From positions 21,216 to 85,215 of the forward strand of contig CAYMOC010000001.1 of the NCBI GenBank assembly GCA_964391965.1: 64,000 nucleotides of DNA, given 5' to 3'. The notes below the pieces were generated by a model, which was given only the letters and a program-made list of their open reading frames with translations, had not been told where the DNA came from and did no database searches. Shown piece after piece: positions 8,953 through 61,056 of this stretch (the first letter of the stretch is position 1; every line of letters starts with the position of its first letter). Made by a program: the position numbers and the translations under genes. The DNA is from an uncultured Thermoplasmatales archaeon (lineage in GTDB: Archaea > Thermoplasmatota > E2 > DHVEG-1).

Positions 8953-11900
8953 TTATTTTGTTCCTCCATTGTGAACAAGTAGTTCTTCTGCGTAATAAGA
9001 ATGTGTTGTGTTTACTTCAAAATTATAAGTTGGTACTTTCTCATAGATTCTTTCAATTGAAAAAATCCTTTGTTTTTCCCCTTCAATATCTTGCAAGTAG
9101 TCATCTATCTTAACCTTACCAGCAGGAGTCCATTCTTCATTTACATATATTCTATGGTTTGGCGTTATCTTAAGAATATTATTGATTATCATATAATAAT
9201 CAGTCATTTCTTCTTTGGGATGATGATGTATACTTGTTACTACGGAGGTTGTTATCTCACCAGTTTTATCATCATAAGATTTAACCATATCTCCAATTTT
9301 GACATCTTCAATGTTTTTCTTTGCGTTGCCTGCCATTGTAATTTTTGATCCTGAAAGAAGACATGTTCCATCATCTGATATATGTATCGTGAAATCTTCA
9401 TAATCATCATACCAGTCTCCTTGTTCATCTGTTACATGAACTATTATATCATAATATTCATCTTGATCGCCTGAATCAACTTTTGGCTCTACCTTGAAAC
9501 GCACAGAATTGGAATCGTATTGTTTAGCAGATATTGTAACTTGAGAATCATCTTCAATGACATCATAATAACTATCCAAATTATAGTAAGTATATTGATA
9601 TTTAACTCTGAAATACAACGAGTCTCCATCTGCATCGTATGCATCTACATTAAATAAGCTAATAGCTAATTGTTCACTCACTGTTTTCGTGTCAATGTCT
9701 GTTGTAAAATATGGCGGAGATCCATCTGAATCTGTTGTGAAATACATCCAATCAGTATTAGAAGAACCACCAGAATTATCAGCACTAGCAGTCCACTTAT
9801 AAGGAGTAGAAGGCTGAAGATTATAAAACGTATGTGAAAACGTATACGGATCATAATGATCACCGCAATTATACTGAATTGGACCGGGTTTATTATGAAC
9901 CAAAACACCATCAGCAAAATAAGTATGAGTCCCTTCAACCTCAAGATTATAAGTAACAACAGGTTCAAAAACACGATCAACAGATAAAACCTCAATAGAC
10001 TCACCAGAAACATCTAACAAACTATCACCAACAACAACACTATCAGCATCAACCCAATCACCATTAACAAACAAAGGATGATCCGGAGTAACACGAAGTC
10101 TGTTATTGATAACTAAGTAATAATCACCCATCTCAACAGCATCATGAACAAAAACATGACCAACAACACTATCAACCATACTACCAGACGACTCATCATA
10201 TGATTTTACAGAATCTCCGACTTGAATATCTTCAATGCTTTTCAATGAACCATCAGCCATACTAATCAAAGTACCTGCAACAAAACAACTCTCCTGCTCA
10301 AGAATAAGCCAACAAGTAGAAGCTTCACCGCCATCATCTAAAAGCTTACCCGTCAAATAAGCCGAACTATCAGTAACACTAGTATGAGAAACAGAGTCAA
10401 TAACTGGTTTATCGGAATCCGTAGTAAAATCCTCATCGTTACCATGGTTTGAACCAGCGTCATTGCTAGCCCATGCACGGAAATGATAAGTGGTACACTT
10501 AGATAGGCCAGTAACCTGAGTATTAAAATAACCAGTAGACGACACCGATATAGGACTAGTAGAATAACCATACGATGTAGTCAAACCATATTCAAACCAG
10601 ACATTGCAACTATTAGCACCACCCATATCAGAAAGATAACCACGTAAAAACGCAGAATTTTGAGTTACACTAGCAGCATTCTGAGTAGAAAGAGTAGGCT
10701 TATCTAAATCTGAATCTGTTGTGAAATACATCCAATCAGTATTAGAAGAACCACCAGAATTATCAGCACTAGCAGTCCACTTATAAGGAGTAGAAGGCTG
10801 AAGATTATAAAACGTATGTGAAAACGTATACGGATCATAATGATCACCGCAATTATACTGAATTGGACCGGGTTTATTATGAACCAAAACACCATCAGCA
10901 AAATAAGTATGAGTCCCTTCAACCTCAAGATTATAAGTAACAACAGGTTCAAAAACACGATCAACAGATAAAACCTCAATAGACTCACCAGAAACATCTA
11001 ACAAACTATCACCAACAACAACACTATCAGCATCAACCCAATCACCATTAACAAACAAAGGATGATCCGGAGTAACACGAAGTCTGTTATTGATAACTAA
11101 GTAATAATCACCCATCTCAACAGCATCATGAACAAAAACATGACCAACAACACTATCAACCATACTACCAGACGACTCATCATATGATTTTACAGAATCT
11201 CCGACTTGAATATCTTCAATGCTTTTCAATGAACCATCAGCCATACTAATCAAAGTACCTGCAACAAAACAACTCTCCTGCTCAAGAATAAGCCAACAAG
11301 TAGAAGCTTCACCGCCATCATCTAAAAGCTTACCCGTCAAATAAGCCGAACTATCAGTAACACTAGTATGAGAAACAGAGTCAATAACTGGCGGGTCGGC
11401 ATCGGTATTAAATGAAAAATCATTGCCATGGCTTGTACCTGCATTATTACTTGCACAAGCGCGATAATGATAAGCGGTACACTTAGTAAGACCCATTATC
11501 TGCTTATAAAAATTACCAGTGGAGTAAACCGTCACGGGATCAGTAGAACTTCCATAGTTTTCAGTTAAACCATATTCAAACCAAACTTCGCAACTATTAT
11601 CCCCACCCATACTTCCTAGATTACCACGTAAGTAAGCGGTAGTCTGTTCAATATTACCCGGGTTTAAAGTTGAAACAGTAGGAGCACTAACCAAATATAT
11701 AGTATCTAATAATGTATTATCACCATTTTCAACACTTATATCATATAAGTTACCATTGGCATAACCCGTTTTGCTAGCTTCTATGTCATATGTCCCTGCA
11801 GGAAGGTAAAGATCATAAAATCCAACAAGGTGACCGCCGGTTCCATCACTAGTATATGTTGAAAATTCTTCAGAAGTATCTTGATTTGTTGCTACAACTA

Positions 11901-14900
11901 AAACATCACCGATAGGATCCTGGGAGCCATGCTCTTTAACATAACCTCTTACTCTACCAACTGCTTTTTCAACAATAAAATAGATTTCATCATCAACATA
12001 ACCAGATTTTTCAACAGTGACTAAACAATCATTTTCATGAAACGGGTTATCATCACTTACCTCATGAGCGACAAAGTAGACACTGCCAGAGGAATCTGTA
12101 TAACCGGTATCCTCTCCAATTAAAACACCATCATCATATGACTGATAAGTAACAAAGGCATCTTCAACTGGATCTCCAGAAAAACTATCAGTTACATAAA
12201 TTTCAAAATCATCACCTTCAAATAAATCTTCACCTTGATCAACACCATCGTAAATTAATTCTATGTTAAATTCGGATAATACTGCAACATTAACTGTTGT
12301 AGAATCATTATCCTTTTTATGTAAAATGGTGTCTTTTTCTCTTACTTGTAATTTAAGTGTATATGTGCCTTCTGTATCATATATATGATCAACCGTGGGA
12401 GAGTCTAACCATCCTGTATCCCAAAATACATCTAAAGGTCCAGTGTAATCAAAATCCCATCTATATTGTAAAACATCCCCATCAGGATCTGAACTATTTG
12501 ATGCATCAAAAGTAACTGTTTCCCCAACATCTGCAGAGTAAGGTCCACCTATATCAGCATTTGGTTTTTGATTACCATATGGCCAAATTTGATCCCATGA
12601 AGCCCCGCCATCATTTGTTGCCTCAATTACAGGCTGTTCTTCTCCACTACCTATTTCTCCACCGTGATCAAAGTATGGAGGAATCCTTATGAAATCCCAA
12701 TGTATCCATTTTCCATTTGCCCAAATGTTACCGACATCAAGAATTTTAATTGCATCATTTGCACCATACCAAAATTCAAAACTAATATGTTGGATAAATG
12801 AATTAGGTGTAGTATCCATATAGAATTGTTTTATGTCGCTACTTCCACCATCTAGATCAAATGCAATAGAACAGTCACCGCTTCCTAGTGTTCTTGAACC
12901 AATCATGTGGAAATTTCCAACATCTAATGTTGTTGTTCCATCAAATCCATTATTGCTTTGGAAGTAAAACGATTTTCCAGTACCCTGGCCGTCATGCCAG
13001 ATCATATCAAAATATGATCTTAGATCTCCATTCCAATCTACTGAGCCTGCAATATCAACATTTTGTGCTGAAAAGGAAAAACCAGATACAGTACTAATAC
13101 TATCACTTGATTGTATAAGATATATTAAGTTTGAATCGCTATCAAGGCCGCCTCTAGCAATGCGTGCATTATAACCAGTTAAAGTACCTGAAATGTCAAC
13201 GACTTCTCCATTCAATGTAATCCTACAAACAGTAACGGTTATTGAACCGTCAAAATAAAAATCTTTACTCCAATCAAGACCTTCATGGAAAGTATGCCAA
13301 TCTCGATATTCTAAGCTGGAACCCGAGGACATTTCTACATTTAGATCAAGAATGGTTTGAGAGTTAAGTTGAATAGTTGATAGATACCCATCAAAACCAG
13401 CTGAGGTGGTTGCTTTTACACATTTAGCATTACCATCCATATAATCCCATTCAATAGTTATATCACTGTTTGGAGAAATTCCAAAATCAAAAGCTGAAAA
13501 AATTACATCATTATTGACTTTTAGTTGTATTATTGAGCCTTGGAAACCAGATTGAGAGTGTATAGAAAGAGTACTACCCTTTTTCCATTCAATTGTAAAA
13601 TCTCCAGCAGAAATAGATGGTATGCTAAGATAAACATGATTTCCATTTAATTCGATTTCAATATTTATCTCTAAATTCAGACCTGAATTGCTTGTAACGG
13701 TTACACTATCCAAAGTACCTTCATCGTCTTTCTCCCAATATGCACCTAGATCTCCTACTAATTGTCCATTTAATGAAAGTGAAAATGAAAATACATCTTG
13801 TATTGTTATTTCCATTATTCCAACAGATGCATCAAGATTGCTTATAAAATGGAATCCATCAATTTTGGAGTCGCTGTAACTTATTTCATCAATATCAATG
13901 GAACCACTGATACTTATCGTTCCAACATCCATGTAAAATACTTCTTCATTGTTAACATTAATTTTGATATAGCCAAGTGTAAATTGTCCTCCGCCAAAAA
14001 TGAATTTTAGGCTGTCTGGCTTAAGGTTTTTCAAAGCCCCAGTCCATTCCATTCTAATTGAGTTGTCTTCAAACTGCGCTACTCCTAAATCAACATCTAT
14101 TTTTGTATTAGTCTGTAAATCATTGAATTCAATTAAATCAACGCCAAGTACTTCTCCATCTATACCTATTTCTAAGTATTTGCTGCTTGTACTAGCTGCA
14201 AAATTTAGACTTCCTTGAAGTGTTATTTCCTGAAGAGCCGCTATATTCCAACGGTCATAAAAAGTTAATTCCAAACCAGTAATTTTTACAGTTGCTCCAC
14301 CGTTTAGATTTCCAGCTACGTAAAGGCTACCAGGCGTATATGTAAAGTATATAAAACCTTGAACACCGATATCTAGAGATGCTGTTACTATTATATCCTT
14401 AGAATTAGGTTCTACAAAACCAGTTTCAATTAAGTTAATTACACTATTTATAAATGAGCTAAGATCATATGAATCTGTAATGTTATTTATGTAGTTGCCA
14501 ATTGTATTAAGTGTATTACTACAAAATGTATCGATTTGTTCTTCAGTAAATAAAGTTAATCCTTTTGTCATGGATACATCTGCTAATACTGCTCCACTGA
14601 GGTATCCACTTACGCTATTAACTGAAAAACCTCCGTTATCATTACCGATTCCAAGTGTTGCAGATCCAGAAATTGCTCCAGAAAGTTGTAGAGTTCCACC
14701 CACATATAATGTACCAAAAGCAGGCGTACTTATTAATCCTCCTCCAGATATGTGAAGATAGCCTCCAGCATAACCGGAAACTTGTATAACTTGGTCTTCT
14801 CCTGCGATATTCAGATTTCCATATATGTATAGAGCACTAAGATATACAGAAATTTGAGGAGATTTGATAGATAAACCCACAATATGAATTCTACCAGATA

Positions 14901-17900
14901 CCCCGATAGCCCCTGAAAAACCCTCTATTTGAAATTCTTCACCAAAAACAATAGAACCTGTTGCTGATGCTTCAATTGGTAAATCAATTTCTTTACAAGA
15001 AGCAGCTAAACCTGGAGTAACAAGAGATACATCCTCAATACCAAAATCAAGTATAGCTTGTGCATCAATAGTAAGAACATTGTTTTCATTCTTATCAAAT
15101 AGGAATTCAATAAAACCAGCAGCACCAACTGACAATGAACAATAACCCAAAGAACCTGAAAAATTTGGTATAGATCCAACTAATTTTTCAATTTTAATAA
15201 TAGTAATATCTTCAGTTTCAGCATCCAATCTTAATTTAACTTTGTTTTTTGTTAAGAAAATTGTTGGATGAATATCACCATTTATTTCAATATTAGACCA
15301 GGTAACAAATATATTTTTATCAGGATAATTGAAAAGAAAATCTTTTAATGAAATATAGCCTGATAAATCAAGGTCAGCATTACCGGCACCATCTACGATT
15401 TCAAAAGAAGGTGCACCTGTCTCATTAAATTTGACTTTTACACCTAATAAACCACCATCAACATTAAAACCATAATCTAAATCTACGTTTAATAAACCTT
15501 TAATTGTCATAGAAGGGATAAGATTCCCAATTTTTTCTATATCAAAATCAAAATCTATACTTCCTTTTCCGTCACCATCAAGGTTTAAAAAGGCTAAAAC
15601 TTCTCCAGCCCAGATCTTACCCCCTCCAGAGTTGATCTGTTGCAAATTGGCTTCAAATTTACCCTCAAAAGAAAGGTTAGATATCTTTATTACATCTCTT
15701 ATGTGTAACTTAAGATTATCAACTATTATACTGGCATCGCCATCAATGGTGAAATATTTTGTTTCATCTAAAGTTTCCCAGGAGAAAACAAGGCCTTCAT
15801 TTTCACCTTGTAAGTAGAAAACACCAGATAATTCAAAAAGTAGTTCATCGCTTCCCTCTTTTTTTATGTTTAAATCTACAGAAATATAACCCTCACCGCT
15901 GATATTTATCCAACCCCACGACATATCAGGTGCAATTTCCCATGTAACATTTCTTATTGTTACATTCAACTCAAAGGTAAATTCTGTAAATCCCACAAGG
16001 TGAAGTTCCGGTTTTGCATAACTTAAATTGTTAAAGATAAAATAGAAACCAAAAAGTTCCAAATGACTTGAAAGTTCAATTTTTCCGCTTACTGATAAAC
16101 TGCCATTGTTATCATCTAAAAACGGATTGATCTCAAGATAGAAACCGCTGTTTGTAGCAGCAGTATTATCCCAAACAATCCTGTCTACATGTATCCTTGA
16201 ATCTACATTTTTTAAAGCAGGTAAAACAGAAGATAAATTAAGATTAGTTATTTCAAAATGAACATCCTTTAATACGATTTTGCTACCTGTACCGGATCTG
16301 CTTGTACTAACTGAATGATCGTTTTTATCTAAAACAAAAGAAAACTTTGAAGGAGAAGTTGAGCTTGTTATTTCAAGTGATTTCCATGAAAATTTTACTT
16401 CCATTGGATCTGGAGAATTATCATTTTTTTGTAGGAATGTTTTTTTATAATTAATATTAAGATTTGATATATTTACATATGTTGATTTTTCTTTTTCGAT
16501 TTCAAAAATTATTGAATTTTCTATAATATCTACGTTTTTAACTATCAAAGTTATGGATGCATTGTCAGAATAGTTTACACCATCATAACAACGTGCTTTG
16601 ACTATGACTCGGCCTATAGGTTTAGATGAGGAATCCCAGTTATAACTCCAACTTGTTGTACCGCTAAGATTCATCCAAGGTTCATCTGCTATTTGGATTT
16701 GAACAAGTTCAACTGGTCGACCGGATTCTCCTGGAGTTGTTGAACCGCTTATGGTGACTACACCTGAAACAGGTGGTATTACTGGATTTATTGATATAGT
16801 TGGTTTATCAATAATTTCATCATCGTCGTCATCGTCAGATCCGCCGGTTCCATTTATTTTTAGAGTTACGCTGTCTAAAGGTGAATAATATAATCCATCA
16901 TAACTACGAGCTTTTATAACATAATTTCCACCAGGATAATTTGTTGTATCCCATTCGATCATCCAATTATCCCAAGATGTACCTATCTTACTTGCTTTTT
17001 TCCAAGGGTTTTGACCGATTTTTACTTCGACATAATCTACAGAGTGTCCTTTTTGACCCGGGCTGCTTGTACCTTGAATTGTTATTGTGTTTTCAACAAC
17101 AGTTCCCTCAGTAGGAGCTGTAATATTCACATTTGGAACAGCTATCTCTGTTAAATCTAAATCAAAATCTAAACTATCAACTGTTAAACTGCATTCTTTT
17201 GAGACATATGTTTTTACTATTACTGAATCAAGTAGTTCATCCAATCCCAAGTCCCTTAATGGGAAAATTGGCATAAATGAAATAATGCCTTCTCTTGATG
17301 ATGAAGTAGTTCTTTCAAAAATTAGATTTTCTATACTAAATTCCATATCCATCATACTATGGCCTGGTATCATGTTTCCAGAATCCATGATATACACAGG
17401 TGCATCGTCTAACTCAATGTCAAGATTATGTAGAGTGAAACCTCCTCCGTTTTTAATCTCAAAGCCTAAACCAAGATCTATATCATCGACTATTATACCA
17501 TTTACAAAACCATTTAAGTCTAGGACAAAAGGTTCATTTGAGCTCTCTATATGGCCATTTCCTGAAGCATATAGAAAATCTGATTCGAAATTAAAATACG
17601 CTTCTAACTCTATAGGGTCTTTATTATCTATTTCAAATCTTCCTTTTAATAAATTAAAATATATAGTTATATCTAGATTACTTTGTGATTTTATTTGTAA
17701 TTCAAAAGAACTTTCGCTATCTAAAATACTAATTTCTGATCCGAAGGCGTTCAAAGAAAGGCCTTCTGTGTCTGAATAAAAACTGATTTCTGTTTCTCTT
17801 AACAATCCTATTCTGAACTGAAAATCTATACGGTTTGTTGAAGGAAGATCTGATAAATAAACTCCTATTTTTGGTTTAAACAAATCGTCATATAAACCAA

Positions 17901-19152
17901 TTTGGCTTATTGATTCTCCACCTGTGTTTAACTCAAGATATCCTTTTAACATAAAAGATGAAAAAATAAAAGAAACCTCTGAGGGGAGATATTTTACAAA
18001 AAAATAATTAAATTTTCTTTCATTAAATAATTCTTTATAAAACAGAATGTTAACGTTTTGACTGCTTGTTTTTTTATAACCTAATTCAATTTTTTCACCA
18101 GGCAATATTGATATTTTTGTTTTCCAGGCAAATTCTACATTTTTGGGGAGATCTTCAATGTAAAAGCCGACATTGACTGGTTTGCCATTTTTACTTATTC
18201 TTTCATGATGAAATTTTACATTTGTTTTTTCGTCTGTATTTATTGAAAATTCTCGATCATAAGGACCTATTGGGTCTTGTATTTTAATTGTTGATTTTAC
18301 ATAAGAATCATAGGTTGCATAAAAACTCCAACCTAGTGCATCACAAAATAAAGATAATTTATCGTCATCGTTACTACCAGGGTTTATTTGAAAAGAATGT
18401 CCTGGTTTTTTTGCGGGGTTTAATAGATTAGGTGCAAGTTTATATGTTACAGTGCAGCTACTTGGGATTTTTTCTTTGTTTTCAGAGATATATCCAAATT
18501 TTACATTTTGATCTGTTAGGTTTTTTATTAAAAAACCTGGGAAATTTAACTGAGCATATGCTCTTAGATATGCATTTTGATTTATACTGTTTCCACTTAG
18601 AAGTTCTATATTTAGATTAAAATTAATAGTAAAAGACAGGGTTTTAAAATCAAAACCAGGCAATACCATTACACGAGCAGAAACATCATCACCACCCGTT
18701 CCATCAACATCTACCTTAACAGTTTGAAACAAACCTAAACCAGTACTTGTTTCAACACCAGAATAATTAGTATGAAAAGTAAGCAGATCATCTAAAAAAC
18801 CAAGTAATCTATGATCTCTAGAACCATCTAACAAACGAAAAGAACTATCACTTTCATTATCATCATTTTTATTTCTATTAAAAAAATCTTTGATTTTTTC
18901 TTTAGCAGAAGAAAGTCTCTGACCAAGCCGGGTATCCTTAAAACCACCATTCAACAAACCAGAATTGTCTTGATCTTCTGAAGAGTTTGTATCTTCGATA
19001 TTTTCTTCTTTTTTAGTTTCAAATGTTGTTGCGTTTGCTGAAGAAGCTATTGTTGAAAATAGTAGGATAGTTATTATTGTTAGAACCAAAAGCTTTGTTA
19101 AATATATTTTTGAAGAACCCTGGCAGGTATTCTTCTTTAATAATTTTTGCAT
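8953..19152 (-). CDS. Giant secreted surface protein, paralog A, 3399 aa. It has a signal peptide, Ig-like repeats, a PKD domain, FN3-like domains, two internal Hint domains and a C-terminal Hint domain.
   Basis: This is a single 10.2 kb ORF in the track. The N-terminus has a hydrophobic segment ending ASSANA. A PKD motif YRWDFDYTG...GTYTLKLQV is present. The FN3-like pattern C.VWFEYGLT...KCT.YH.RA.ASN.AG recurs. Three Hint domains were identified (see the Hint-domain features at 8968-9363, 9892-10287 and 10876-11271 for the motif evidence). Confidence 0.85.
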   Translation of the reverse strand: MQKLLKKNTCQGSSKIYLTKLLVLTIITILLFSTIASSANATTFETKKEENIEDTNSSEDQDNSGLLNGGFKDTRLGQRLSSAKEKIKDFFNRNKNDDNESDSSFRLLDGSRDHRLLGFLDDLLTFHTNYSGVETSTGLGLFQTVKVDVDGTGGDDVSARVMVLPGFDFKTLSFTINFNLNIELLSGNSINQNAYLRAYAQLNFPGFLIKNLTDQNVKFGYISENKEKIPSSCTVTYKLAPNLLNPAKKPGHSFQINPGSNDDDKLSLFCDALGWSFYATYDSYVKSTIKIQDPIGPYDREFSINTDEKTNVKFHHERISKNGKPVNVGFYIEDLPKNVEFAWKTKISILPGEKIELGYKKTSSQNVNILFYKELFNERKFNYFFVKYLPSEVSFIFSSFMLKGYLELNTGGESISQIGLYDDLFKPKIGVYLSDLPSTNRIDFQFRIGLLRETEISFYSDTEGLSLNAFGSEISILDSESSFELQIKSQSNLDITIYFNLLKGRFEIDNKDPIELEAYFNFESDFLYASGNGHIESSNEPFVLDLNGFVNGIIVDDIDLGLGFEIKNGGGFTLHNLDIELDDAPVYIMDSGNMIPGHSMMDMEFSIENLIFERTTSSSREGIISFMPIFPLRDLGLDELLDSVIVKTYVSKECSLTVDSLDFDLDLTEIAVPNVNITAPTEGTVVENTITIQGTSSPGQKGHSVDYVEVKIGQNPWKKASKIGTSWDNWMIEWDTTNYPGGNYVIKARSYDGLYYSPLDSVTLKINGTGGSDDDDDDEIIDKPTISINPVIPPVSGVVTISGSTTPGESGRPVELVQIQIADEPWMNLSGTTSWSYNWDSSSKPIGRVIVKARCYDGVNYSDNASITLIVKNVDIIENSIIFEIEKEKSTYVNISNLNINYKKTFLQKNDNSPDPMEVKFSWKSLEITSSTSPSKFSFVLDKNDHSVSTSRSGTGSKIVLKDVHFEITNLNLSSVLPALKNVDSRIHVDRIVWDNTAATNSGFYLEINPFLDDNNGSLSVSGKIELSSHLELFGFYFIFNNLSYAKPELHLVGFTEFTFELNVTIRNVTWEIAPDMSWGWINISGEGYISVDLNIKKEGSDELLFELSGVFYLQGENEGLVFSWETLDETKYFTIDGDASIIVDNLKLHIRDVIKISNLSFEGKFEANLQQINSGGGKIWAGEVLAFLNLDGDGKGSIDFDFDIEKIGNLIPSMTIKGLLNVDLDYGFNVDGGLLGVKVKFNETGAPSFEIVDGAGNADLDLSGYISLKDFLFNYPDKNIFVTWSNIEINGDIHPTIFLTKNKVKLRLDAETEDITIIKIEKLVGSIPNFSGSLGYCSLSVGAAGFIEFLFDKNENNVLTIDAQAILDFGIEDVSLVTPGLAASCKEIDLPIEASATGSIVFGEEFQIEGFSGAIGVSGRIHIVGLSIKSPQISVYLSALYIYGNLNIAGEDQVIQVSGYAGGYLHISGGGLISTPAFGTLYVGGTLQLSGAISGSATLGIGNDNGGFSVNSVSGYLSGAVLADVSMTKGLTLFTEEQIDTFCSNTLNTIGNYINNITDSYDLSSFINSVINLIETGFVEPNSKDIIVTASLDIGVQGFIYFTYTPGSLYVAGNLNGGATVKITGLELTFYDRWNIAALQEITLQGSLNFAASTSSKYLEIGIDGEVLGVDLIEFNDLQTNTKIDVDLGVAQFEDNSIRMEWTGALKNLKPDSLKFIFGGGQFTLGYIKINVNNEEVFYMDVGTISISGSIDIDEISYSDSKIDGFHFISNLDASVGIMEITIQDVFSFSLSLNGQLVGDLGAYWEKDDEGTLDSVTVTSNSGLNLEINIEIELNGNHVYLSIPSISAGDFTIEWKKGSTLSIHSQSGFQGSIIQLKVNNDVIFSAFDFGISPNSDITIEWDYMDGNAKCVKATTSAGFDGYLSTIQLNSQTILDLNVEMSSGSSLEYRDWHTFHEGLDWSKDFYFDGSITVTVCRITLNGEVVDISGTLTGYNARIARGGLDSDSNLIYLIQSSDSISTVSGFSFSAQNVDIAGSVDWNGDLRSYFDMIWHDGQGTGKSFYFQSNNGFDGTTTLDVGNFHMIGSRTLGSGDCSIAFDLDGGSSDIKQFYMDTTPNSFIQHISFEFWYGANDAIKILDVGNIWANGKWIHWDFIRIPPYFDHGGEIGSGEEQPVIEATNDGGASWDQIWPYGNQKPNADIGGPYSADVGETVTFDASNSSDPDGDVLQYRWDFDYTGPLDVFWDTGWLDSPTVDHIYDTEGTYTLKLQVREKDTILHKKDNDSTTVNVAVLSEFNIELIYDGVDQGEDLFEGDDFEIYVTDSFSGDPVEDAFVTYQSYDDGVLIGEDTGYTDSSGSVYFVAHEVSDDNPFHENDCLVTVEKSGYVDDEIYFIVEKAVGRVRGYVKEHGSQDPIGDVLVVATNQDTSEEFSTYTSDGTGGHLVGFYDLYLPAGTYDIEASKTGYANGNLYDISVENGDNTLLDTIYLVSAPTVSTLNPGNIEQTTAYLRGNLGSMGGDNSCEVWFEYGLTENYGSSTDPVTVYSTGNFYKQIMGLTKCTAYHYRACASNNAGTSHGNDFSFNTDADPPVIDSVSHTSVTDSSAYLTGKLLDDGGEASTCWLILEQESCFVAGTLISMADGSLKSIEDIQVGDSVKSYDESSGSMVDSVVGHVFVHDAVEMGDYYLVINNRLRVTPDHPLFVNGDWVDADSVVVGDSLLDVSGESIEVLSVDRVFEPVVTYNLEVEGTHTYFADGVLVHNKPGPIQYNCGDHYDPYTFSHTFYNLQPSTPYKWTASADNSGGSSNTDWMYFTTDSDLDKPTLSTQNAASVTQNSAFLRGYLSDMGGANSCNVWFEYGLTTSYGYSTSPISVSSTGYFNTQVTGLSKCTTYHFRAWASNDAGSNHGNDEDFTTDSDKPVIDSVSHTSVTDSSAYLTGKLLDDGGEASTCWLILEQESCFVAGTLISMADGSLKSIEDIQVGDSVKSYDESSGSMVDSVVGHVFVHDAVEMGDYYLVINNRLRVTPDHPLFVNGDWVDADSVVVGDSLLDVSGESIEVLSVDRVFEPVVTYNLEVEGTHTYFADGVLVHNKPGPIQYNCGDHYDPYTFSHTFYNLQPSTPYKWTASADNSGGSSNTDWMYFTTDSDGSPPYFTTDIDTKTVSEQLAISLFNVDAYDADGDSLYFRVKYQYTYYNLDSYYDVIEDDSQVTISAKQYDSNSVRFKVEPKVDSGDQDEYYDIIVHVTDEQGDWYDDYEDFTIHISDDGTCLLSGSKITMAGNAKKNIEDVKIGDMVKSYDDKTGEITTSVVTSIHHHPKEEMTDYYMIINNILKITPNHRIYVNEEWTPAGKVKIDDYLQDIEGEKQRIFSIERIYEKVPTYNFEVNTTHSYYAEELLVHNGGTK
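8968..9363 (-). other. C-terminal Hint (Hedgehog/intein-like) domain of giant protein A. It runs from CLLSGSKIT to ELLVHN and is followed only by GGTK-stop.
   Basis: The Cys codon is at 9361-9363 and the Asn codon at 8968-8970. Block B TPNH and block G HN are present. There is no homing-endonuclease insert. Confidence 0.7.
9892..10287 (-). other. Internal Hint domain, copy 2 (C-proximal). It is inserted within an FN3-like domain of giant protein A.
   Basis: The domain runs CFVAGTLISMADGS...RVTPDHPLFV...GVLVHN. Its Cys is at 10285-10287 and its HN at 9892-9897. The residue after the HN is Lys (KPGP), so a canonical extein +1 nucleophile is absent. Confidence 0.7.
10876..11271 (-). other. Internal Hint domain, copy 1. 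Its amino-acid sequence is identical to copy 2.
   Basis: The DNA and protein match 9892-10287 exactly, offset by 984 bp. Confidence 0.7.
18600..18965. repeat. Dispersed repeat, copy 2. It is the counterpart of 8150-8520.
   Basis: Near-identical DNA. Confidence 0.8.
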
Positions 19153-58375: not shown

Positions 58376-58648
58376 TTATTTATTTTTTAGTTTTTCATAT
58401 TCTTTTTCTGTCTGATGTTCAATATATCCCTCTCCGCGGAATGCAGAGATTCCATGTGCTGCAACTCCGATACCCCAGCCAAATAAAACAAAAATAGGCC
58501 ATGGAGCTACATCCCCACCTGTTATAAGCCACCATTGAGCAAAAAGGAAAGCATTAACAGCGATGTAAATTACCAGATGAATATAAAAATCAGATTTTTC
58601 CTTAGCGATTTTTCTTGCTTTTTTCCTTAATTCCTCATCAGTTGGCAT
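58376..58648 (-). CDS. Small 2-TM membrane protein
   Basis: ORF with two hydrophobic helices. Confidence 0.4.
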   Translation of the reverse strand: MPTDEELRKKARKIAKEKSDFYIHLVIYIAVNAFLFAQWWLITGGDVAPWPIFVLFGWGIGVAAHGISAFRGEGYIEHQTEKEYEKLKNK

Positions 58649-58691: not shown

Positions 58692-58712
58692 AAGTATGGA
58701 CTGTCGGGATTT
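58692..58712. repeat. Putative attL, a 21-nt direct repeat of the tRNA-Ala 3' end plus 5 nt of flank
   Basis: aagtatggactg-tcgggattt here versus aagtatggactggtcgggattt at 60295-60316, a 21/22 match. Confidence 0.55.
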
Positions 58713-58811
58713 ATTACTCAAATAATGAGTTTGTTTTTTTAATTTTTTTAAGTGCGATAAAAAATGATCATTTTTTAAACTATTAGTCGATCAGTATTTT
58801 TCGATCTATAA

Positions 58812-59370
58812 ATGATTTTAGATAGCGAAATAAAAGAATACATCTTTCTTACAACCGAGGGAACTACATTTCAGCCAGGATCTCATTTTCTTGAACCAGA
58901 TATAGAAAATCTACAAGTGATCGGATTTTCAAGGGGTGAAACATCAAAAGAAGCGTTTGAAAAACTGATTTTTGATAATTCCTATCTTCTTGAAACTAGC
59001 TTCAATGAAATATTCGGCTTGGAGTTAGCTAATTTTTCAAAAAGAGATTTTTATTTTTTAAGAGAAGAGGTGGATTAATCTGGCAATAGTAATTAATATG
59101 GGTGATGAATACTTTTTAAGAGCCAGTAAAGAAAAAGTTGGAACATTTGACATTGTTGCAATAGACTGAGAGCATCCTAACTATGGTTATTTTACAGATG
59201 CAATGCTTTGGTATAGATCTCATCATAGCATAAACTGGATTCCAATTCACATAGTAAATTGGTCTGATAAATATTCAGAATTATCGATGTTTTTAGAAGA
59301 TTTCCCTGAATTAAGAGTTCTTTTTGATGGTGGTTTTGATTATCCGATGATTCAGACAAAAAAGAATAGT
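58812..59370 (+). pseudogene. Disrupted ORF in three pieces. 58812-59078 is joined to the ORF starting at 59098 by a +1 frame change, and there is an in-frame TGA at 59167-59169.
   Basis: Contiguous coding-like sequence continues across a frame shift and an internal TGA (...VGTFDIVAID-stop-EHPNYGYFTDAML...). Confidence 0.45.
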
Positions 59371-59450
59371 TAAGATATCATCAAAAATATTTTTGATCAA
59401 GTTTTATAAGCTTATTATCTATCTTTAAATTAGTTTAGGGTAGATACATA

Positions 59451-60224
59451 ATGAATACAATACTCTATAATGAGAGGGTTTTGAACAAATACCATAGTAA
59501 ATCTCAGATAGCGCGAGTTTTGACTGAAAGTTGGTTTAAAGAAGAAATGTATTGTCCTAATTGTTTGAATTATAATCTATTAAAAAATCCAGATAATACA
59601 AAGGTAGTAGATTTCGTTTGCAATAATTGTAATAATAAATTTCAACTTAAAGCCCAGTCAAAACCTTTTTACTCAAAAGTTGTAGATGGTGCATTTCTTC
59701 CTATGATTAATTCTATTCAACGCAGAACAAATCCAAATTTTTCATTTATGCAGTATTCTTTTGAAGATTGGAAAATTCAAAATCTCATCATGGTTCCTAA
59801 ATTCTTTTTTTCCTCATCAATCATAGAAAAAAGAAAACCTTTATCTCAAAATGCGCGAAGAGCTGGTTGGGTAGGATGTAATATATTATTATCAAATCTA
59901 CCTGAATTAGGTAAAATCAAAATTATTGATAACGGCAAATCAATATCGAAGACAGATGTGCAAAAAACATGGAAAAAATTATCTTTTATGGAGGATGAGT
60001 ATCCTGGACGTAGAGCATGGTTATCTGATATATTATATTGTATACAAAAACTAAATAAAAAAGAATTTACACTATCAGAGATGTATGATTTTGAAAATTA
60101 TTTATCAAGATTGCATCCCAAAAATAAAAATGTAAAACCAAAAATTAGACAGCAGCTACAAATTTTAAGAGACAAGGGTATCGTTGAATTTAAATCTAGA
60201 GGACTTTATGTTTTTAAAGAATAA
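59451..60224 (+). CDS. DpnI-family methylation-dependent (GmATC) restriction endonuclease, Type IIM
   Basis: KSQIARVLTESWFKEEMYCPNC...DFVCNNC...FQLKAQS, RKPL...ARRAGWVGCNI and the C-terminal KIRQQLQILRDKGIVEFKSRGLY closely match the remembered S. pneumoniae DpnI sequence. Confidence 0.7.
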   Translation: MNTILYNERVLNKYHSKSQIARVLTESWFKEEMYCPNCLNYNLLKNPDNTKVVDFVCNNCNNKFQLKAQSKPFYSKVVDGAFLPMINSIQRRTNPNFSFMQYSFEDWKIQNLIMVPKFFFSSSIIEKRKPLSQNARRAGWVGCNILLSNLPELGKIKIIDNGKSISKTDVQKTWKKLSFMEDEYPGRRAWLSDILYCIQKLNKKEFTLSEMYDFENYLSRLHPKNKNVKPKIRQQLQILRDKGIVEFKSRGLYVFKE

Positions 60225-60294
60225 TGAAGTTATATATTGCACTATGTTGGATAATAACTGCAAAACCTGATAGGTATTGCTCCAATATTTTAAA

Positions 60295-60316
60295 AAGTAT
60301 GGACTGGTCGGGATTT
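60295..60316. repeat. Putative attR overlapping the tRNA-Ala 3' end
   Basis: See 58692-58712. Confidence 0.55.
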
Positions 60317-60373
60317 GAACCCGAGGCCTCTTCCATGCCAAGGAAGCGATCTTCCGAGCTGATCTACCAGCCC
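60300..60373 (-). tRNA. tRNA-Ala (anticodon GGC)
   Basis: The cloverleaf has the G3·U70 identity pair. The D-arm is GATC/GATC, the anticodon loop TTGGCAT, and the T-arm TCGGG-TTCAAAT-CCCGA. Confidence 0.85.
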
Positions 60374-60453
60374 AACAGGACTTTCTGAGAACCACAAATA
60401 GAATTATCCTATAAAAAACTATTAGATATAAAACCCACATTATCGAGTGTAAC

Positions 60454-61056
60454 ATGAAACAAAAAGAACTTGAAATACTTCTTCAGAAAATTCCTGATTT
60501 CAAAAAACCAAAACCAGGTTTAGAACAATATATAACACCAGCACCAATCGCAGCTGATATTCTTTTTAAAGCATTTCAACTAGGTGATATTAAAGATAGA
60601 ATAGTTGTTGATCTTGGCTGTGGAACCGGTATTTTTGCATATGGAGCATATTTATTAGAAGCTCAAAAAGTTGTAGGAGTCGATAATGACAGAGATTGTA
60701 TAGATACTGCTCGTGATTTTGTATTCAAAAACAATCTATGTATAAATTATGGTATAAATGAGATTAGAAACGTTAACATTGTTTGTGACACTGTTTTGAT
60801 GAACCCGCCTTTTGGAGCGCAAAAAACCAACATTAGAGCTGACAGAAAATTTATTGAGAAAGCATTTGAAATATCTCAGGTATTCTATTCACTTCATCTT
60901 TCAAACACTATGGAGTTTATAAAAAAAATTATTTCATCATTAAACGGAAAAATAACTCATATACAGGAATATGATTTCCCAATAAAACATGCTTTTTCTT
61001 TTCATAAAAAACCAGTAAAAAAATATAAGATTTCCATGATTAGAGTAGAAAAATAG
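60454..61056 (+). CDS. METTL5-like N6-adenine methyltransferase (class I SAM, NPPF motif)
   Basis: VDLGCGTGIF and VLMNPPFG are present. Confidence 0.65.
   Translation: MKQKELEILLQKIPDFKKPKPGLEQYITPAPIAADILFKAFQLGDIKDRIVVDLGCGTGIFAYGAYLLEAQKVVGVDNDRDCIDTARDFVFKNNLCINYGINEIRNVNIVCDTVLMNPPFGAQKTNIRADRKFIEKAFEISQVFYSLHLSNTMEFIKKIISSLNGKITHIQEYDFPIKHAFSFHKKPVKKYKISMIRVEK

What the first reader, a model, noticed from the sequence alone, without database searches (positions are those of the whole stretch)
58692..60316. A ~1.6 kb remnant integrated element at tRNA-Ala is bounded by a 21/22-nt direct repeat and carries a DpnI-family restriction enzyme
The 3' 17 nt of tRNA-Ala(GGC) plus 5 nt of flank (aagtatggactggtcgggattt, 60295-60316) recur at 58692-58712 with a single-base indel. 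The interval between holds only a broken ORF (58812-59370) and a DpnI-like gene. No integrase is left. This is the signature of a decayed tRNA-targeting integrative element whose cargo, a defence gene, has been retained.
Basis: seen in the sequence. Interest (0 to 1): 0.7.

Follow-up and report, generated by a model that had tools for sequence, protein, structure and literature searches.

The report
Small DpnI defence islet beside tRNA-Ala
A 1.6-kb piece of acquired DNA, carrying a methylation-dependent restriction enzyme and two small partner genes, is inserted at the end of an alanine tRNA gene in an uncultured Thermoplasmatota archaeon; the insertion is real, but it is an ordinary kind of genomic islet.

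Summary
The last 17 nt of tRNA-Ala(GGC) plus 5 nt of flank (60295-60316) recur at 58692-58712 with one missing base. About 3e-7 such matches are expected by chance in the window.

Five related Thermoplasmatota loci have the 2TM gene 34-36 nt from the tRNA. So 58713-60294 is an insertion at a site that is empty in relatives. Other relatives carry different cargo at the same tRNA, also bounded by tRNA 3'-end copies.

The cargo is a full-length DpnI-family enzyme. The "broken ORF" is really two small genes: orfA (intact, AF_1447-like) and orfB (one TGG>TGA nonsense). Together with DpnI they form a three-gene module found at 74-80% DNA identity in two other metagenome contexts.

No integrase lies in the islet, its neighbours, or any related islet I examined.

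Best reading: a site-specific integration into the tRNA T-loop to 3' end region, now immobile, with DpnI kept under purifying selection. Whether a larger element decayed, or the islet was always non-autonomous, is not settled.

It is a new member of a known kind, of modest interest. The side observations, a GATC-triplet promoter and the orfA/orfB partners, are the more unusual part.

The parts
58376..58648 (-). Host flank: 2TM-domain membrane protein gene, the gene that abuts tRNA-Ala in genomes with the empty site
   Evidence: Pfam 2TM 1.2e-17. It is 74-88% identical in L025, L086, L087, L091 and L098, where its start codon lies 34-36 nt from the tRNA 3' end.
58692..58712 (-). Distal att-like repeat: the displaced original 3' end of tRNA-Ala (16 of 17 nt, one C deleted) plus the 5-nt flank
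   Evidence: It lies 48 nt from the 2TM start, which is where the tRNA end sits in empty sites apart from about 12-14 extra nt. Chance expectation about 3e-7.
58713..58760 (+). Left linker of the islet, not shared with other copies of the module
   Evidence: blastn homology to L081 and L130 starts only at 58759-58761.
58761..58811 (+). Conserved promoter-like region of the module: TATA-like TTTTTTAAA and three GATC sites (58766, 58789, 58803)
   Evidence: The GATC sites are at -46, -23 and -9 from the orfA ATG in the window, L081 and L130.
58812..59078 (+). orfA, 88 aa, intact; small protein of the AF_1447 (PF27350) family, function unknown
59098..59373 (+). orfB, 91 codons, pseudogene with premature TGA at 59167-59169 (Trp in all homologues); rare family of unknown function
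59451..60224 (+). DpnI-family type IIM (methyl-directed, G-m6A-TC) restriction endonuclease, 257 aa, full length
   Evidence: Cys4 motif CPNC...CNNC is present. The catalytic D...QLK variant is shared by 80 of the 120 closest homologues. dN/dS 0.07-0.12 against L081, L084 and L130.
60261..60285 (+). Conserved 24-nt segment AAAACCTGATAGGTATTGCTCCAA near the right end of the islet
   Evidence: It also lies downstream of DpnI in L084 (2212-2236), L129 (1683-1707) and L130 (1660-1686). Function unknown.
60295..60316 (-). Proximal att-like repeat: 5-nt flank plus the last 17 nt of the functional tRNA-Ala
60299..60374 (-). tRNA-Ala(GGC), intact; its 3' end faces the islet
   Evidence: ARAGORN. The sequence is identical to the tRNA-Ala of L025.
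60454..61056 (+). Host flank: conserved small methyltransferase (MTS/PrmA-like, NPPF motif), a core syntenic gene and not part of the islet
   Evidence: Pfam. It lies next to tRNA-Ala(GGC) in about 25 Thermoplasmatota genomes.

Best explanation

Proposed steps:
1. The incoming DNA carried a copy of the last 17 nt of the tRNA plus a few flanking bases (an attP core running from the T-loop to the 3' end).
2. Recombination with the chromosomal tRNA rebuilt a functional tRNA from the element-borne copy (proximal repeat).
3. The original 3' end was left stranded next to the 2TM gene (distal repeat).

The recombinase, most likely a tyrosine integrase, is no longer present. What remains is almost exactly one three-gene module (orfA, orfB, DpnI). 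The distal repeat has since lost one base and orfB has a nonsense codon, so the islet is now fixed and partly decaying.

The DpnI-family enzyme is intact. It should cut DNA carrying G-m6A-TC, that is DNA of Dam-methylating viruses or plasmids. The host's own 228 GATC sites in this window would have to be unmethylated.

Shown: the insertion, the repeats, the empty site, the gene identities, and the absence of an integrase in and beside the islet.
Inferred: the integrase mechanism, the former larger element, and the enzyme's activity and specificity.
For: Repeat and geometry:
- 21/22-nt direct repeat with a chance expectation of about 3e-7.
- Identity starts inside the T-loop and runs past the 3' end, as in T-loop-type tRNA att sites. 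An example is the 26-bp attP core of mycobacteriophage Ms6 at tRNA-Ala (PMC1762012).
- The length fits archaeal att sites: thaumarchaeal median 17 bp, range 8 to more than 25 (PMC6563490).
- The tRNA 3' end faces the islet.

Empty sites:
- L025, L086, L087, L091 and L098 have 2TM 34-36 nt from the tRNA-Ala 3' end, within otherwise conserved CarS-ArsR-(UbiA)-2TM-tRNA-MT-NYN-L15 synteny.
- The flank of the distal copy keeps the TTTTTTATA box found in front of 2TM in empty sites.

Same tRNA used repeatedly in relatives:
- L090: 713-nt insert, about 47-nt degenerate tRNA copy.
- L019: 5.2 kb, 17/18-nt copy.
- L006: 2.8 kb, 13-nt copy.

Foreign and modular nature of the cargo:
- 58761-60227 is 80.5% identical in DNA to L081, where it sits in a defence island with no tRNA.
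- It is 73.8% identical to L130.
- Islet GC is 28.4% against 32.3 +/- 2.4% for same-size tiles of the window, the 2.6th percentile.

State of the genes:
- DpnI is intact and constrained.
- orfB's TGA is a true stop: TGA ends 4 of 37 long ORFs and Trp is always TGG.
Against: - No integrase or integrase fragment is in the islet.
- None was found in the ten further window ORFs scanned, including those beside tRNA-Lys and tRNA-Gly.
- None was seen in the inserts at the same tRNA: L006 and L019 by Pfam; L005, L008, L027, L003 and L029 only by reading the ORF translations; L089 and L090 only by reading the DNA.
- None was found beside the module elsewhere.
- About 93% of the islet is the module, so there is no relic of any other element gene.
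- Tetranucleotide usage is not deviant: 46% of tiles are at least as far from the window mean.
- The closest genomes are only about 50-90% identical in protein, so no strain-level before-and-after pair exists.
- The module lies next to other tRNA-type genes, in both orientations (L084, L130). One integrase with one attP does not explain this.
Confidence: 0.6

Rival explanations
1. The islet was never much larger. It is a non-autonomous, att-bounded cassette, functionally like a bacterial cis-mobilizable element (CIME) or a satellite. It consists of the orfA-orfB-DpnI module plus short ends, and it is moved into tRNA-type genes by integrases supplied in trans by other elements.
For: - Almost the whole islet is the module.
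- L130 has the same module (73.8% DNA identity), about 1.7 kb, between a tRNA/tmRNA-like 3' end and a degenerate copy of it (TTCGAATCCCGCCAGGTCCGCT against TTCTAA-CCCACCAGGTCCACT). No integrase is present on that 1.8-kb contig.
- In L084 the closest DpnI (87% aa) is 100 nt from the 3' end of tRNA-Ser(CGA), in the same geometry as here. It shares 63 nt downstream of the gene with the window.
- A conserved 24-nt segment lies near the end of the unit in four contexts.
- CIMEs are defined as elements that lost integration and transfer genes but keep attL and attR (PMC6323972).
Against: - Three different tRNA-type targets and both orientations would need several attP cores and integrases.
- The linkers between the module and the repeats are not conserved: 48 against 110 nt on the left, 9 against 75 nt on the right.
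- The module also occurs inside ordinary defence islands with no tRNA nearby (L081, L123, L131).
- The distal repeat here is already damaged and orfB is dead.
- The contigs of L084 and L130 are too short to exclude an integrase just outside them.
Confidence: 0.2
2. The att repeats are the scar of an older, unrelated element. The DpnI module arrived later and replaced the earlier cargo, by homologous or illegitimate recombination within a tRNA-linked landing pad (cassette exchange between islands).
For: - The same tRNA-Ala site holds quite different cargo bounded by tRNA copies in relatives (L090, L006, L019).
- L128 and L130 share the same right end, but the genes upstream of DpnI differ: NERD plus an 85-aa gene against orfA plus orfB.
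- The DpnI gene is found with several different neighbours.
Against: - No trace of older cargo is left. Only 48 nt on the left and about 67 nt on the right lie outside the module, and the right part is shared with L084.
- No flanking homology that could drive such an exchange was identified.
Confidence: 0.12
3. The repeat is a target-site duplication made by a transposase or a Cas1-type (casposon-like) integrase that prefers tRNA 3' ends.
For: From my own knowledge, not tested here: casposons of a Thermoplasmatota archaeon (Aciduliprofundum boonei) insert at a tRNA 3' end and make duplications of about 14-15 bp. The variety of tRNA-type genes next to the module would be easier to explain with a mechanism that is not tied to one sequence.
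Against: - There are no terminal inverted repeats at 58713 and 60294.
- There is no Cas1, PolB or transposase gene.
- 22 nt is long for a target duplication.
- The repeats at the same tRNA in relatives range from 13 to about 47 nt. That fits recombination between homologous att sites, not a staggered cut of fixed length.
Confidence: 0.03
4. There is no insertion: the repeat is chance, or a decayed tandem tRNA copy, and 58713-60294 is native sequence.
For: Tetranucleotide composition is not deviant.
Against: - Chance expectation is about 3e-7.
- Identity has sharp edges, not the graded similarity expected of a decayed tRNA duplicate.
- There are five empty sites in relatives.
- The interval is homologous to DNA in unrelated contexts.
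Confidence: 0.01

Closest known systems
R.DpnI of Streptococcus pneumoniae (type IIM, PDB 4ESJ/4KYW) and the Pfam DpnI / DpnI_C ('Dam-replacing') family
   Same: Full-length collinear match (E 2e-64, residues 6-253 against 8-254). It has the N-terminal PD-(D/E)XK-type domain with a Cys4 motif and the C-terminal winged-helix domain. There is no cognate methyltransferase in the islet, as expected for a methyl-directed enzyme.
   Different: - It is archaeal.
- The catalytic ELK is QLK, as in most of its closest relatives.
- Its partner genes are orfA and orfB, not dpnD: no Pfam hit at E<=0.1.
- It lies in a tRNA-bounded islet rather than the pneumococcal dpn locus.
- Activity and specificity are untested.
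tRNA-integrating elements whose att core runs from the T-loop to the 3' end, for example mycobacteriophage Ms6 at tRNA-Ala (26-bp core; PMC1762012)
   Same: The direct repeat begins in the T-loop and covers the 3' end of a tRNA-Ala gene. The tRNA is regenerated. The repeat length is similar (22 against 26 bp).
   Different: There is no integrase, no attP arms that I could recognise, and no other element genes. It is only 1.6 kb and in an archaeal host.
Cis-mobilizable elements (CIMEs) of Firmicutes (definition in PMC6323972)
   Same: Bounded by attL- and attR-like repeats, with no integration or transfer genes, and cargo only.
   Different: - One repeat is already imperfect.
- No parent ICE, or any conjugative element, is known for this lineage.
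- Mobilisation is untested.
- The term was coined for bacteria.
Cryptic integrated elements and other integrated elements of archaea (Thaumarchaeota, PMC6563490; PYG1 of Pyrococcus yayanosii with 44-bp tRNA-Gln repeats, PMC9897764)
   Same: Integration into tRNA 3' ends. There are short att repeats, a partial tRNA copy at the far end, and restriction-modification genes as frequent cargo.
   Different: Those elements are several kb to tens of kb and, in the cases described, mostly carry an integrase. Here there are three genes and none.

Membership tests
DpnI family (type IIM methyl-directed restriction endonuclease) | N-terminal DpnI catalytic domain (Pfam PF06044) above the gathering score | tested here: met
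   215.5 bits against a cut-off of 26.7, profile positions 4-182 of 183. PADLOC mREase_II 3e-84.
DpnI family (type IIM methyl-directed restriction endonuclease) | C-terminal winged-helix domain (PF17726) that reads methylated GATC | tested here: met
   106.2 bits against a cut-off of 23, profile positions 2-68 of 70. It aligns to 4ESJ through residue 254.
DpnI family (type IIM methyl-directed restriction endonuclease) | Catalytic D...(E)xK motif and Cys4 metal site | tested here: inconclusive
   The Cys4 motif (CPNC...CNNC) and the Asp are present. The Glu of ELK in 4ESJ is Gln (FQLK) here and in 80 of the 120 closest homologues. It is therefore typical of this branch, but its effect on catalysis is unknown.
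DpnI family (type IIM methyl-directed restriction endonuclease) | Cleaves only G-m6A-TC; host GATC unmethylated | not testable with these tools
   GATC is not avoided in the window (228 sites, observed/expected 0.83). No Dam-like methyltransferase was seen in the islet. The methylome is unknown.
Integrase-mediated integrative element at a tRNA gene | Direct repeats made of the tRNA 3' part, one of them inside the functional tRNA | tested here: met
   21/22 nt at 58692-58712 and 60295-60316.
Integrase-mediated integrative element at a tRNA gene | Empty site in related genomes | tested here: met
   L025, L086, L087, L091 and L098. These relatives are at genus or family level only (2TM 74-88% aa identity).
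Integrase-mediated integrative element at a tRNA gene | Integrase (tyrosine or serine recombinase) gene inside the element | tested here: not met
   The three ORFs of the islet have no recombinase hit at E<=0.1. The six-frame translation shows no further ORF.
Integrase-mediated integrative element at a tRNA gene | Excision to a circular form, with an attP junction | not testable with these tools
   This needs reads or PCR. No near-identical contig was found in the collections: the best DpnI hit is 87% aa.
Cis-mobilizable element (CIME) | Both att sites retained intact, no integration or transfer genes | tested here: inconclusive
   There are no such genes (met). The distal site has a 1-nt deletion in the acceptor-stem part. 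Ms6 data show that single-base core changes can abolish or reduce integration.
Cis-mobilizable element (CIME) | Mobilised in cis by a related ICE that integrates next to it | not tested
   No ICE or integrase was found in the 19 window ORFs scanned. The rest of the genome is unavailable.
Casposon / transposon | Terminal inverted repeats and a Cas1 or transposase gene | tested here: not met
   No inverted repeat joins the islet ends. There is no such gene.
Pneumococcal DpnI cassette (dpnC-dpnD) | DpnD-type partner gene | tested here: not met
   orfA and orfB have no Pfam match at E<=0.1. orfA relatives carry PF27350 (AF_1447) in the precomputed annotation.

The most novel reading that the evidence does not exclude
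The orfA-orfB-DpnI module may be a self-contained defence cassette. It would include its GATC-triplet promoter and the conserved 24-nt end segment. It would spread between distant hosts (a Thermoplasmatota archaeon here, possibly a bacterium in L130) and settle repeatedly at the 3' ends of tRNA-type genes without a recombinase of its own. That would make it an archaeal counterpart of cis- or trans-mobilised att-bounded islets. In this reading orfA/orfB are new accessory or regulatory partners of restriction enzymes that read GATC sites in their own promoter.
Probability: 0.15. Interest if true: 0.55.

Novelty: new member of a known kind. Interest (0 to 1): 0.3.

Why it matters
Integrated elements of uncultured Thermoplasmatota are poorly catalogued. 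This locus gives a clean, checkable example: an occupied site, five empty sites, and three differently occupied sites. It shows that tRNA-Ala(GGC) is a recurrent landing site in this lineage. It also shows that defence genes can persist there as minimal islets after, or without, the recombinase.

It places a DpnI-type methyl-directed enzyme in this archaeal lineage. That implies a Dam-negative host facing Dam-methylated invaders.

The more useful leads are secondary ones:
- two small gene families of unknown function (orfA/AF_1447 and orfB) that accompany restriction genes;
- a promoter with three positionally conserved GATC sites, which could be tested for methylation-dependent control.

None of this overturns current understanding.

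Tried and rejected
- Ungapped repeat tools do not see the repeat because of the 1-nt indel. I confirmed it by eye, by local alignment and by an explicit one-edit search.
- An integrase or DpnD origin for the 'broken ORF': no hit in Pfam, PHROGs or PADLOC. Rejected.
- orfA and orfB as one frameshifted gene: homologues are separate 82-93 aa and 86-125 aa proteins, and none of the longer orfB-family proteins I read (P0133, P0139 and others) has an orfA-like N-terminus. Rejected.
- TGA read as Trp: TGA ends 4 of 37 long ORFs and all 174 Trp codons are TGG. Rejected.
- DpnI inactivated by the E>Q change: the Q is the majority state in the branch, and dN/dS is about 0.1. Rejected as a defect.
- Composition: GC is slightly low, tetranucleotides are normal. 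Weak evidence only.
- Viral contigs: no DpnI relative, no 24-nt segment, no promoter motif.
- No direct repeats flank the module in L081.
- Integrase scan of 10 further window ORFs, including those next to tRNA-Lys and tRNA-Gly: none. I did not scan every ORF of the window.
- L085, the closest 2TM homologue (91%), has neither the tRNA nor the islet in the 96 nt upstream, and none of the usual neighbour genes were found on its 1-kb contig. It is uninformative.
- The inserts in L005, L008 and L027 between ArsR and the tRNA look like ordinary secreted-protein, membrane-protein or housekeeping genes (judged from the ORF translations only) and no tRNA copy was detected in them. I do not count them as islets.
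Full report
**1. The observation**

The region was read directly. The 22-mer AAGTATGGACTGGTCGGGATTT at 60295-60316 recurs at 58692-58712 as AAGTATGGACTGTCGGGATTT. That is 21 of 22 positions with one deleted base, on the same strand.

ARAGORN places tRNA-Ala(GGC) at 60299-60374 on the minus strand. From the acceptor-stem pairing (GGGCTGG/CCAGTCC with G3:U70, discriminator A) the gene ends at 60300. Those 17 nt are four bases of the T-loop, the 3' strand of the T-stem, the 3' strand of the acceptor stem and the discriminator.

Identity ends abruptly on both sides. The expected number of matches with at most one edit in a 64-kb strand of this composition is about 3e-7. No match was seen in 200 first-order Markov shuffles. 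Ungapped searches see only the tRNA copy because of the indel.

**2. Host and neighbourhood**

The window has 32.5% G+C. The gene next to the tRNA (60454-61056) is a small MTS/PrmA-type methyltransferase. Its best relatives are in Thermoplasmatota MAGs, at up to 65% identity.

About 25 of these genomes share the order CarS - ArsR - [variable] - tRNA-Ala(GGC) - methyltransferase - (NYN) - L15. The genes on either side of the interval are therefore conserved core genes.

**3. The empty site**

[quoted passage not shown] Nothing lies in between. The tRNA of L025 is identical in sequence to that of the window.

In the window the distal repeat lies 48 nt from the 2TM start, which is where the tRNA end lies in the empty sites plus about 12-14 extra bases. 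It is followed by the same TTTTTTATA box that precedes 2TM in the empty sites.

So 58713-60294 (1,582 bp) is an insertion. The distal repeat marks the original tRNA end.

These relatives are at genus or family level, not strain level. The best 2TM match (L085, 91%) sits on a 1-kb contig in a different context and is uninformative.

**4. A recurrent landing site**

Other relatives carry other DNA at the same place, again bounded by copies of the tRNA 3' part.

| Locus | Insert | tRNA copy | Content |
|---|---|---|---|
| L090 | 713 nt | about 47 nt, 3 mismatches and 1 gap, from the anticodon-loop region to the 3' end | one small gene |
| L019 | 5.2 kb | 17/18 nt | Schlafen/AlbA_2, PRiA4_ORF3, UPF0158 and helicase-fragment genes |
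| L006 | 2.8 kb | 13 nt | |

Sources. None of these inserts shows an integrase: L006 and L019 were scanned against Pfam, the L090 insert only read as DNA.

The repeats differ in length (13, 18, 22 and about 47 nt). This argues for several independent recombination events with different att cores, not a fixed-length target duplication.

**5. The cargo**

*DpnI gene.* 59451-60224 encodes a 257-aa protein. It matches Pfam DpnI (6e-64) and DpnI_C (1e-30), PADLOC mREase_II (3e-84), and S. pneumoniae R.DpnI (PDB 4ESJ; 2e-64, end to end). The Cys4 motif is present. The ELK of the pneumococcal enzyme is QLK here, but also in 80 of the 120 closest homologues. dN/dS against three homologues is 0.07-0.12. 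The gene therefore looks functional.

*The 'broken ORF'.* This is two genes.
- orfA (58812-59078, 88 aa) is intact. Its relatives are annotated PF27350 (AF_1447) in the precomputed data. That model is apparently absent from the local Pfam copy, which gave no hit even for those relatives.
- orfB (59098-59373) has one in-frame TGA at 59167-59169. Every homologue has Trp there, in the invariant motif WEHPNYGY.
- The organism uses the standard code, so orfB is a pseudogene or carries a sequencing error.
- Neither protein matches an integrase, DpnD or any other Pfam, PHROG or PADLOC family.
- The orfB family is rare: 76 representatives among 1.84 billion proteins.

**6. A conserved three-gene module**

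Window 58761-60227 is 80.5% identical in DNA to L081 2381-3852. There orfA, orfB and DpnI lie in the same order inside a defence-type neighbourhood (Macro, MazG-like, SLFN-g3 helicase), with no tRNA gene anywhere on the 13.9-kb locus.

The module recurs in L130 at 73.8% identity. About 93% of the islet is therefore this module. Only 48 nt on the left and about 67 nt on the right lie outside it.

**7. The same module or gene beside other tRNA-type genes**

*L084.* This contig holds the closest DpnI homologue (87% aa). The gene is followed after 100 nt by tRNA-Ser(CGA) on the opposite strand, the same geometry as in the window. 63 nt downstream of the gene are shared with the window.

*L130.* The module lies between a tRNA-like 3' end at the contig start and a degenerate copy of it about 1.7 kb away. 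Rfam's best call for the 3' end is tmRNA (E 0.002, truncated). The module is in the opposite orientation relative to the tRNA-like gene. L128 shares that right end but has other genes upstream of DpnI.

*Shared end segment.* A 24-nt segment (window 60261-60285) recurs downstream of DpnI in L084, L129 and L130.

*Other contexts.* Other DpnI homologues sit in ordinary defence islands, with no tRNA found next to the gene in any of them.

**8. Mechanism**

The best-supported reading is site-specific recombination between a chromosomal attB in the T-loop to 3' end part of tRNA-Ala and an element-borne copy of that sequence. This regenerates the tRNA and leaves the displaced end as the distal repeat.

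This is how tRNA-integrating elements of bacteria and archaea behave. Examples are the 26-bp Ms6 core at tRNA-Ala (PMC1762012), archaeal att sites of 8 to 69 bp (PMC6563490), and the partial tRNA copy beside PYG1 (PMC9897764).

The insertion and the repeats are shown. The recombinase is inferred, because none is present. The 1-nt deletion in the distal repeat and the orfB nonsense codon indicate that the islet is no longer mobile.

The functional part is the DpnI-type enzyme. By homology it should cut G-m6A-TC DNA and so restrict Dam-methylating invaders. The host's GATC sites are not depleted (228 in the window, observed/expected 0.83), so they must be unmethylated.

**9. What remains open**

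Three histories fit the data.

It is simple, but it requires deletions that left exactly one module, and no relic of other genes remains.

(b) *The islet was always a non-autonomous att-bounded cassette, mobilised by integrases in trans.* This would be functionally like a CIME (PMC6323972). The small islet in L130 and the tRNA-Ser case favour it. Against it are the different targets, the opposite orientations and the non-conserved linkers.

(c) *The module replaced older cargo inside an existing att-bounded landing pad.*

I give (a), within the general integration model, about 0.6, (b) 0.2 and (c) 0.12. Transposon or casposon-type insertion, and chance, are disfavoured. There are no inverted repeats, the repeat lengths vary, and empty sites exist.

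**10. Composition**

The islet has 28.4% G+C against 32.3 +/- 2.4% for tiles of the same size, the 2.6th percentile. Its tetranucleotide usage is unremarkable. Composition neither helps nor hurts much. The donor pool seems similarly AT-rich.

**11. Comparison with known systems, and novelty**

- The enzyme is a member of the DpnI family. Both domains are met; the catalytic motif is a branch-typical variant; activity is untested.
- The islet works like the remnant of a tRNA-integrating element. It fails the membership test for an integrative element on the integrase criterion.
- It resembles a CIME in architecture only.
- It is not a casposon or transposon.
- The partner genes are not dpnD.

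Overall this is a new member of known kinds, in a poorly studied archaeal lineage.

The less ordinary points are side observations:
- the orfA/orfB pair as companions of restriction genes, also seen in L124 and L126;
- three GATC sites at identical positions (-46, -23, -9) in the module's promoter in three diverged copies.

**12. Verdict**

It is wrong on the 'broken ORF', and the decay history is unproven. Interest 0.3.

Noticed in passing
window 58761-58811 (GATC at 58766, 58789, 58803); L081 about 2385-2430; L130 about 144-189: Three GATC sites lie at exactly -46, -23 and -9 from the orfA start in three copies of the module that are only 74-80% identical. The first abuts a TATA-like TTTTTTAAA. 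A GATC also abuts the TATA-like box upstream of DpnI in L130, L128, L123 and L131 (-36/-37), and in the window (59395, -56). For a cassette whose enzyme reads methylated GATC, this suggests methylation-sensitive promoter control. Untested.
   Followed up: partly
window 58812-59373; L126 5512-8059; L124 1746-2855: The orfA (AF_1447/PF27350) and orfB families also occur without DpnI. L126 (GCA_024278375.1) has three orfA paralogues and one orfB next to a DUF6996/6997 plus N6_N4_Mtase pair. L124 has orfB two genes upstream of a BglII-like endonuclease. They may be accessory or regulatory partners of restriction systems. Their structures have no known fold neighbours.
   Followed up: partly
window 60261-60285; L084 2212-2236; L129 1683-1707; L130 1660-1686: A conserved 24-nt segment AAAACCTG(A)TAGGTATTGCTCCAA lies downstream of DpnI in four contexts, near the outer end of the unit. 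Its distance to the tRNA-derived repeat varies (9 to 75 nt). Its role is unknown: terminator, recombinase arm site, or the promoter of a lost gene.
   Followed up: partly
L130 1-31 and about 1748-1769; L128 about 2299-2317: The module in L130 is bounded by a tRNA-like 3' end that Rfam scores best as the 3' end of tmRNA (E 0.002, truncated) and by a degenerate copy of it. tmRNA is a bacterial gene. If the call is right, near-identical modules sit in an archaeon and in a bacterium. With only 31 nt the call is uncertain.
   Followed up: partly
L090 9288-10000; L019 1916-7072; L006 1635-4460: Related Thermoplasmatota carry different small inserts at the same tRNA-Ala(GGC), bounded by tRNA copies of about 47, 18 and 13 nt. 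No integrase was seen in any of them: L006 and L019 were scanned against Pfam, the L090 insert was only read as DNA. Cargo includes a Schlafen/AlbA_2 regulator-like protein, a PRiA4_ORF3 protein, an aspartyl-protease-like protein with DUF5678, and small secreted proteins.
   Followed up: partly
L081 4214-6465; L123 1645-3917; L131 10923-13960: DpnI homologues are repeatedly adjacent to a MazG-like gene and an SLFN-g3 helicase / nSTAND gene, and in two of the three cases RadC. This suggests a recurring defence-island neighbourhood in these uncultured lineages.
   Followed up: no
window 8953-19152 (-): A single ORF of 3,399 aa. I did not examine it.
   Followed up: no
window 60299-60374: ARAGORN's tRNA-Ala boundaries appear shifted outward by one base at each end relative to the acceptor-stem pairing (gene 60300-60373). 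No CCA is encoded. The tRNA is followed by a T-run (TACTTTTT) that probably serves as terminator.
   Followed up: yes
L009, L016, L026-L029 (between tRNA-Ala and the methyltransferase gene): In several relatives there is also 1.6-3.3 kb of extra DNA on the 5' side of tRNA-Ala, between it and the methyltransferase gene. Both flanks of this tRNA are therefore variable in the lineage.
   Followed up: no
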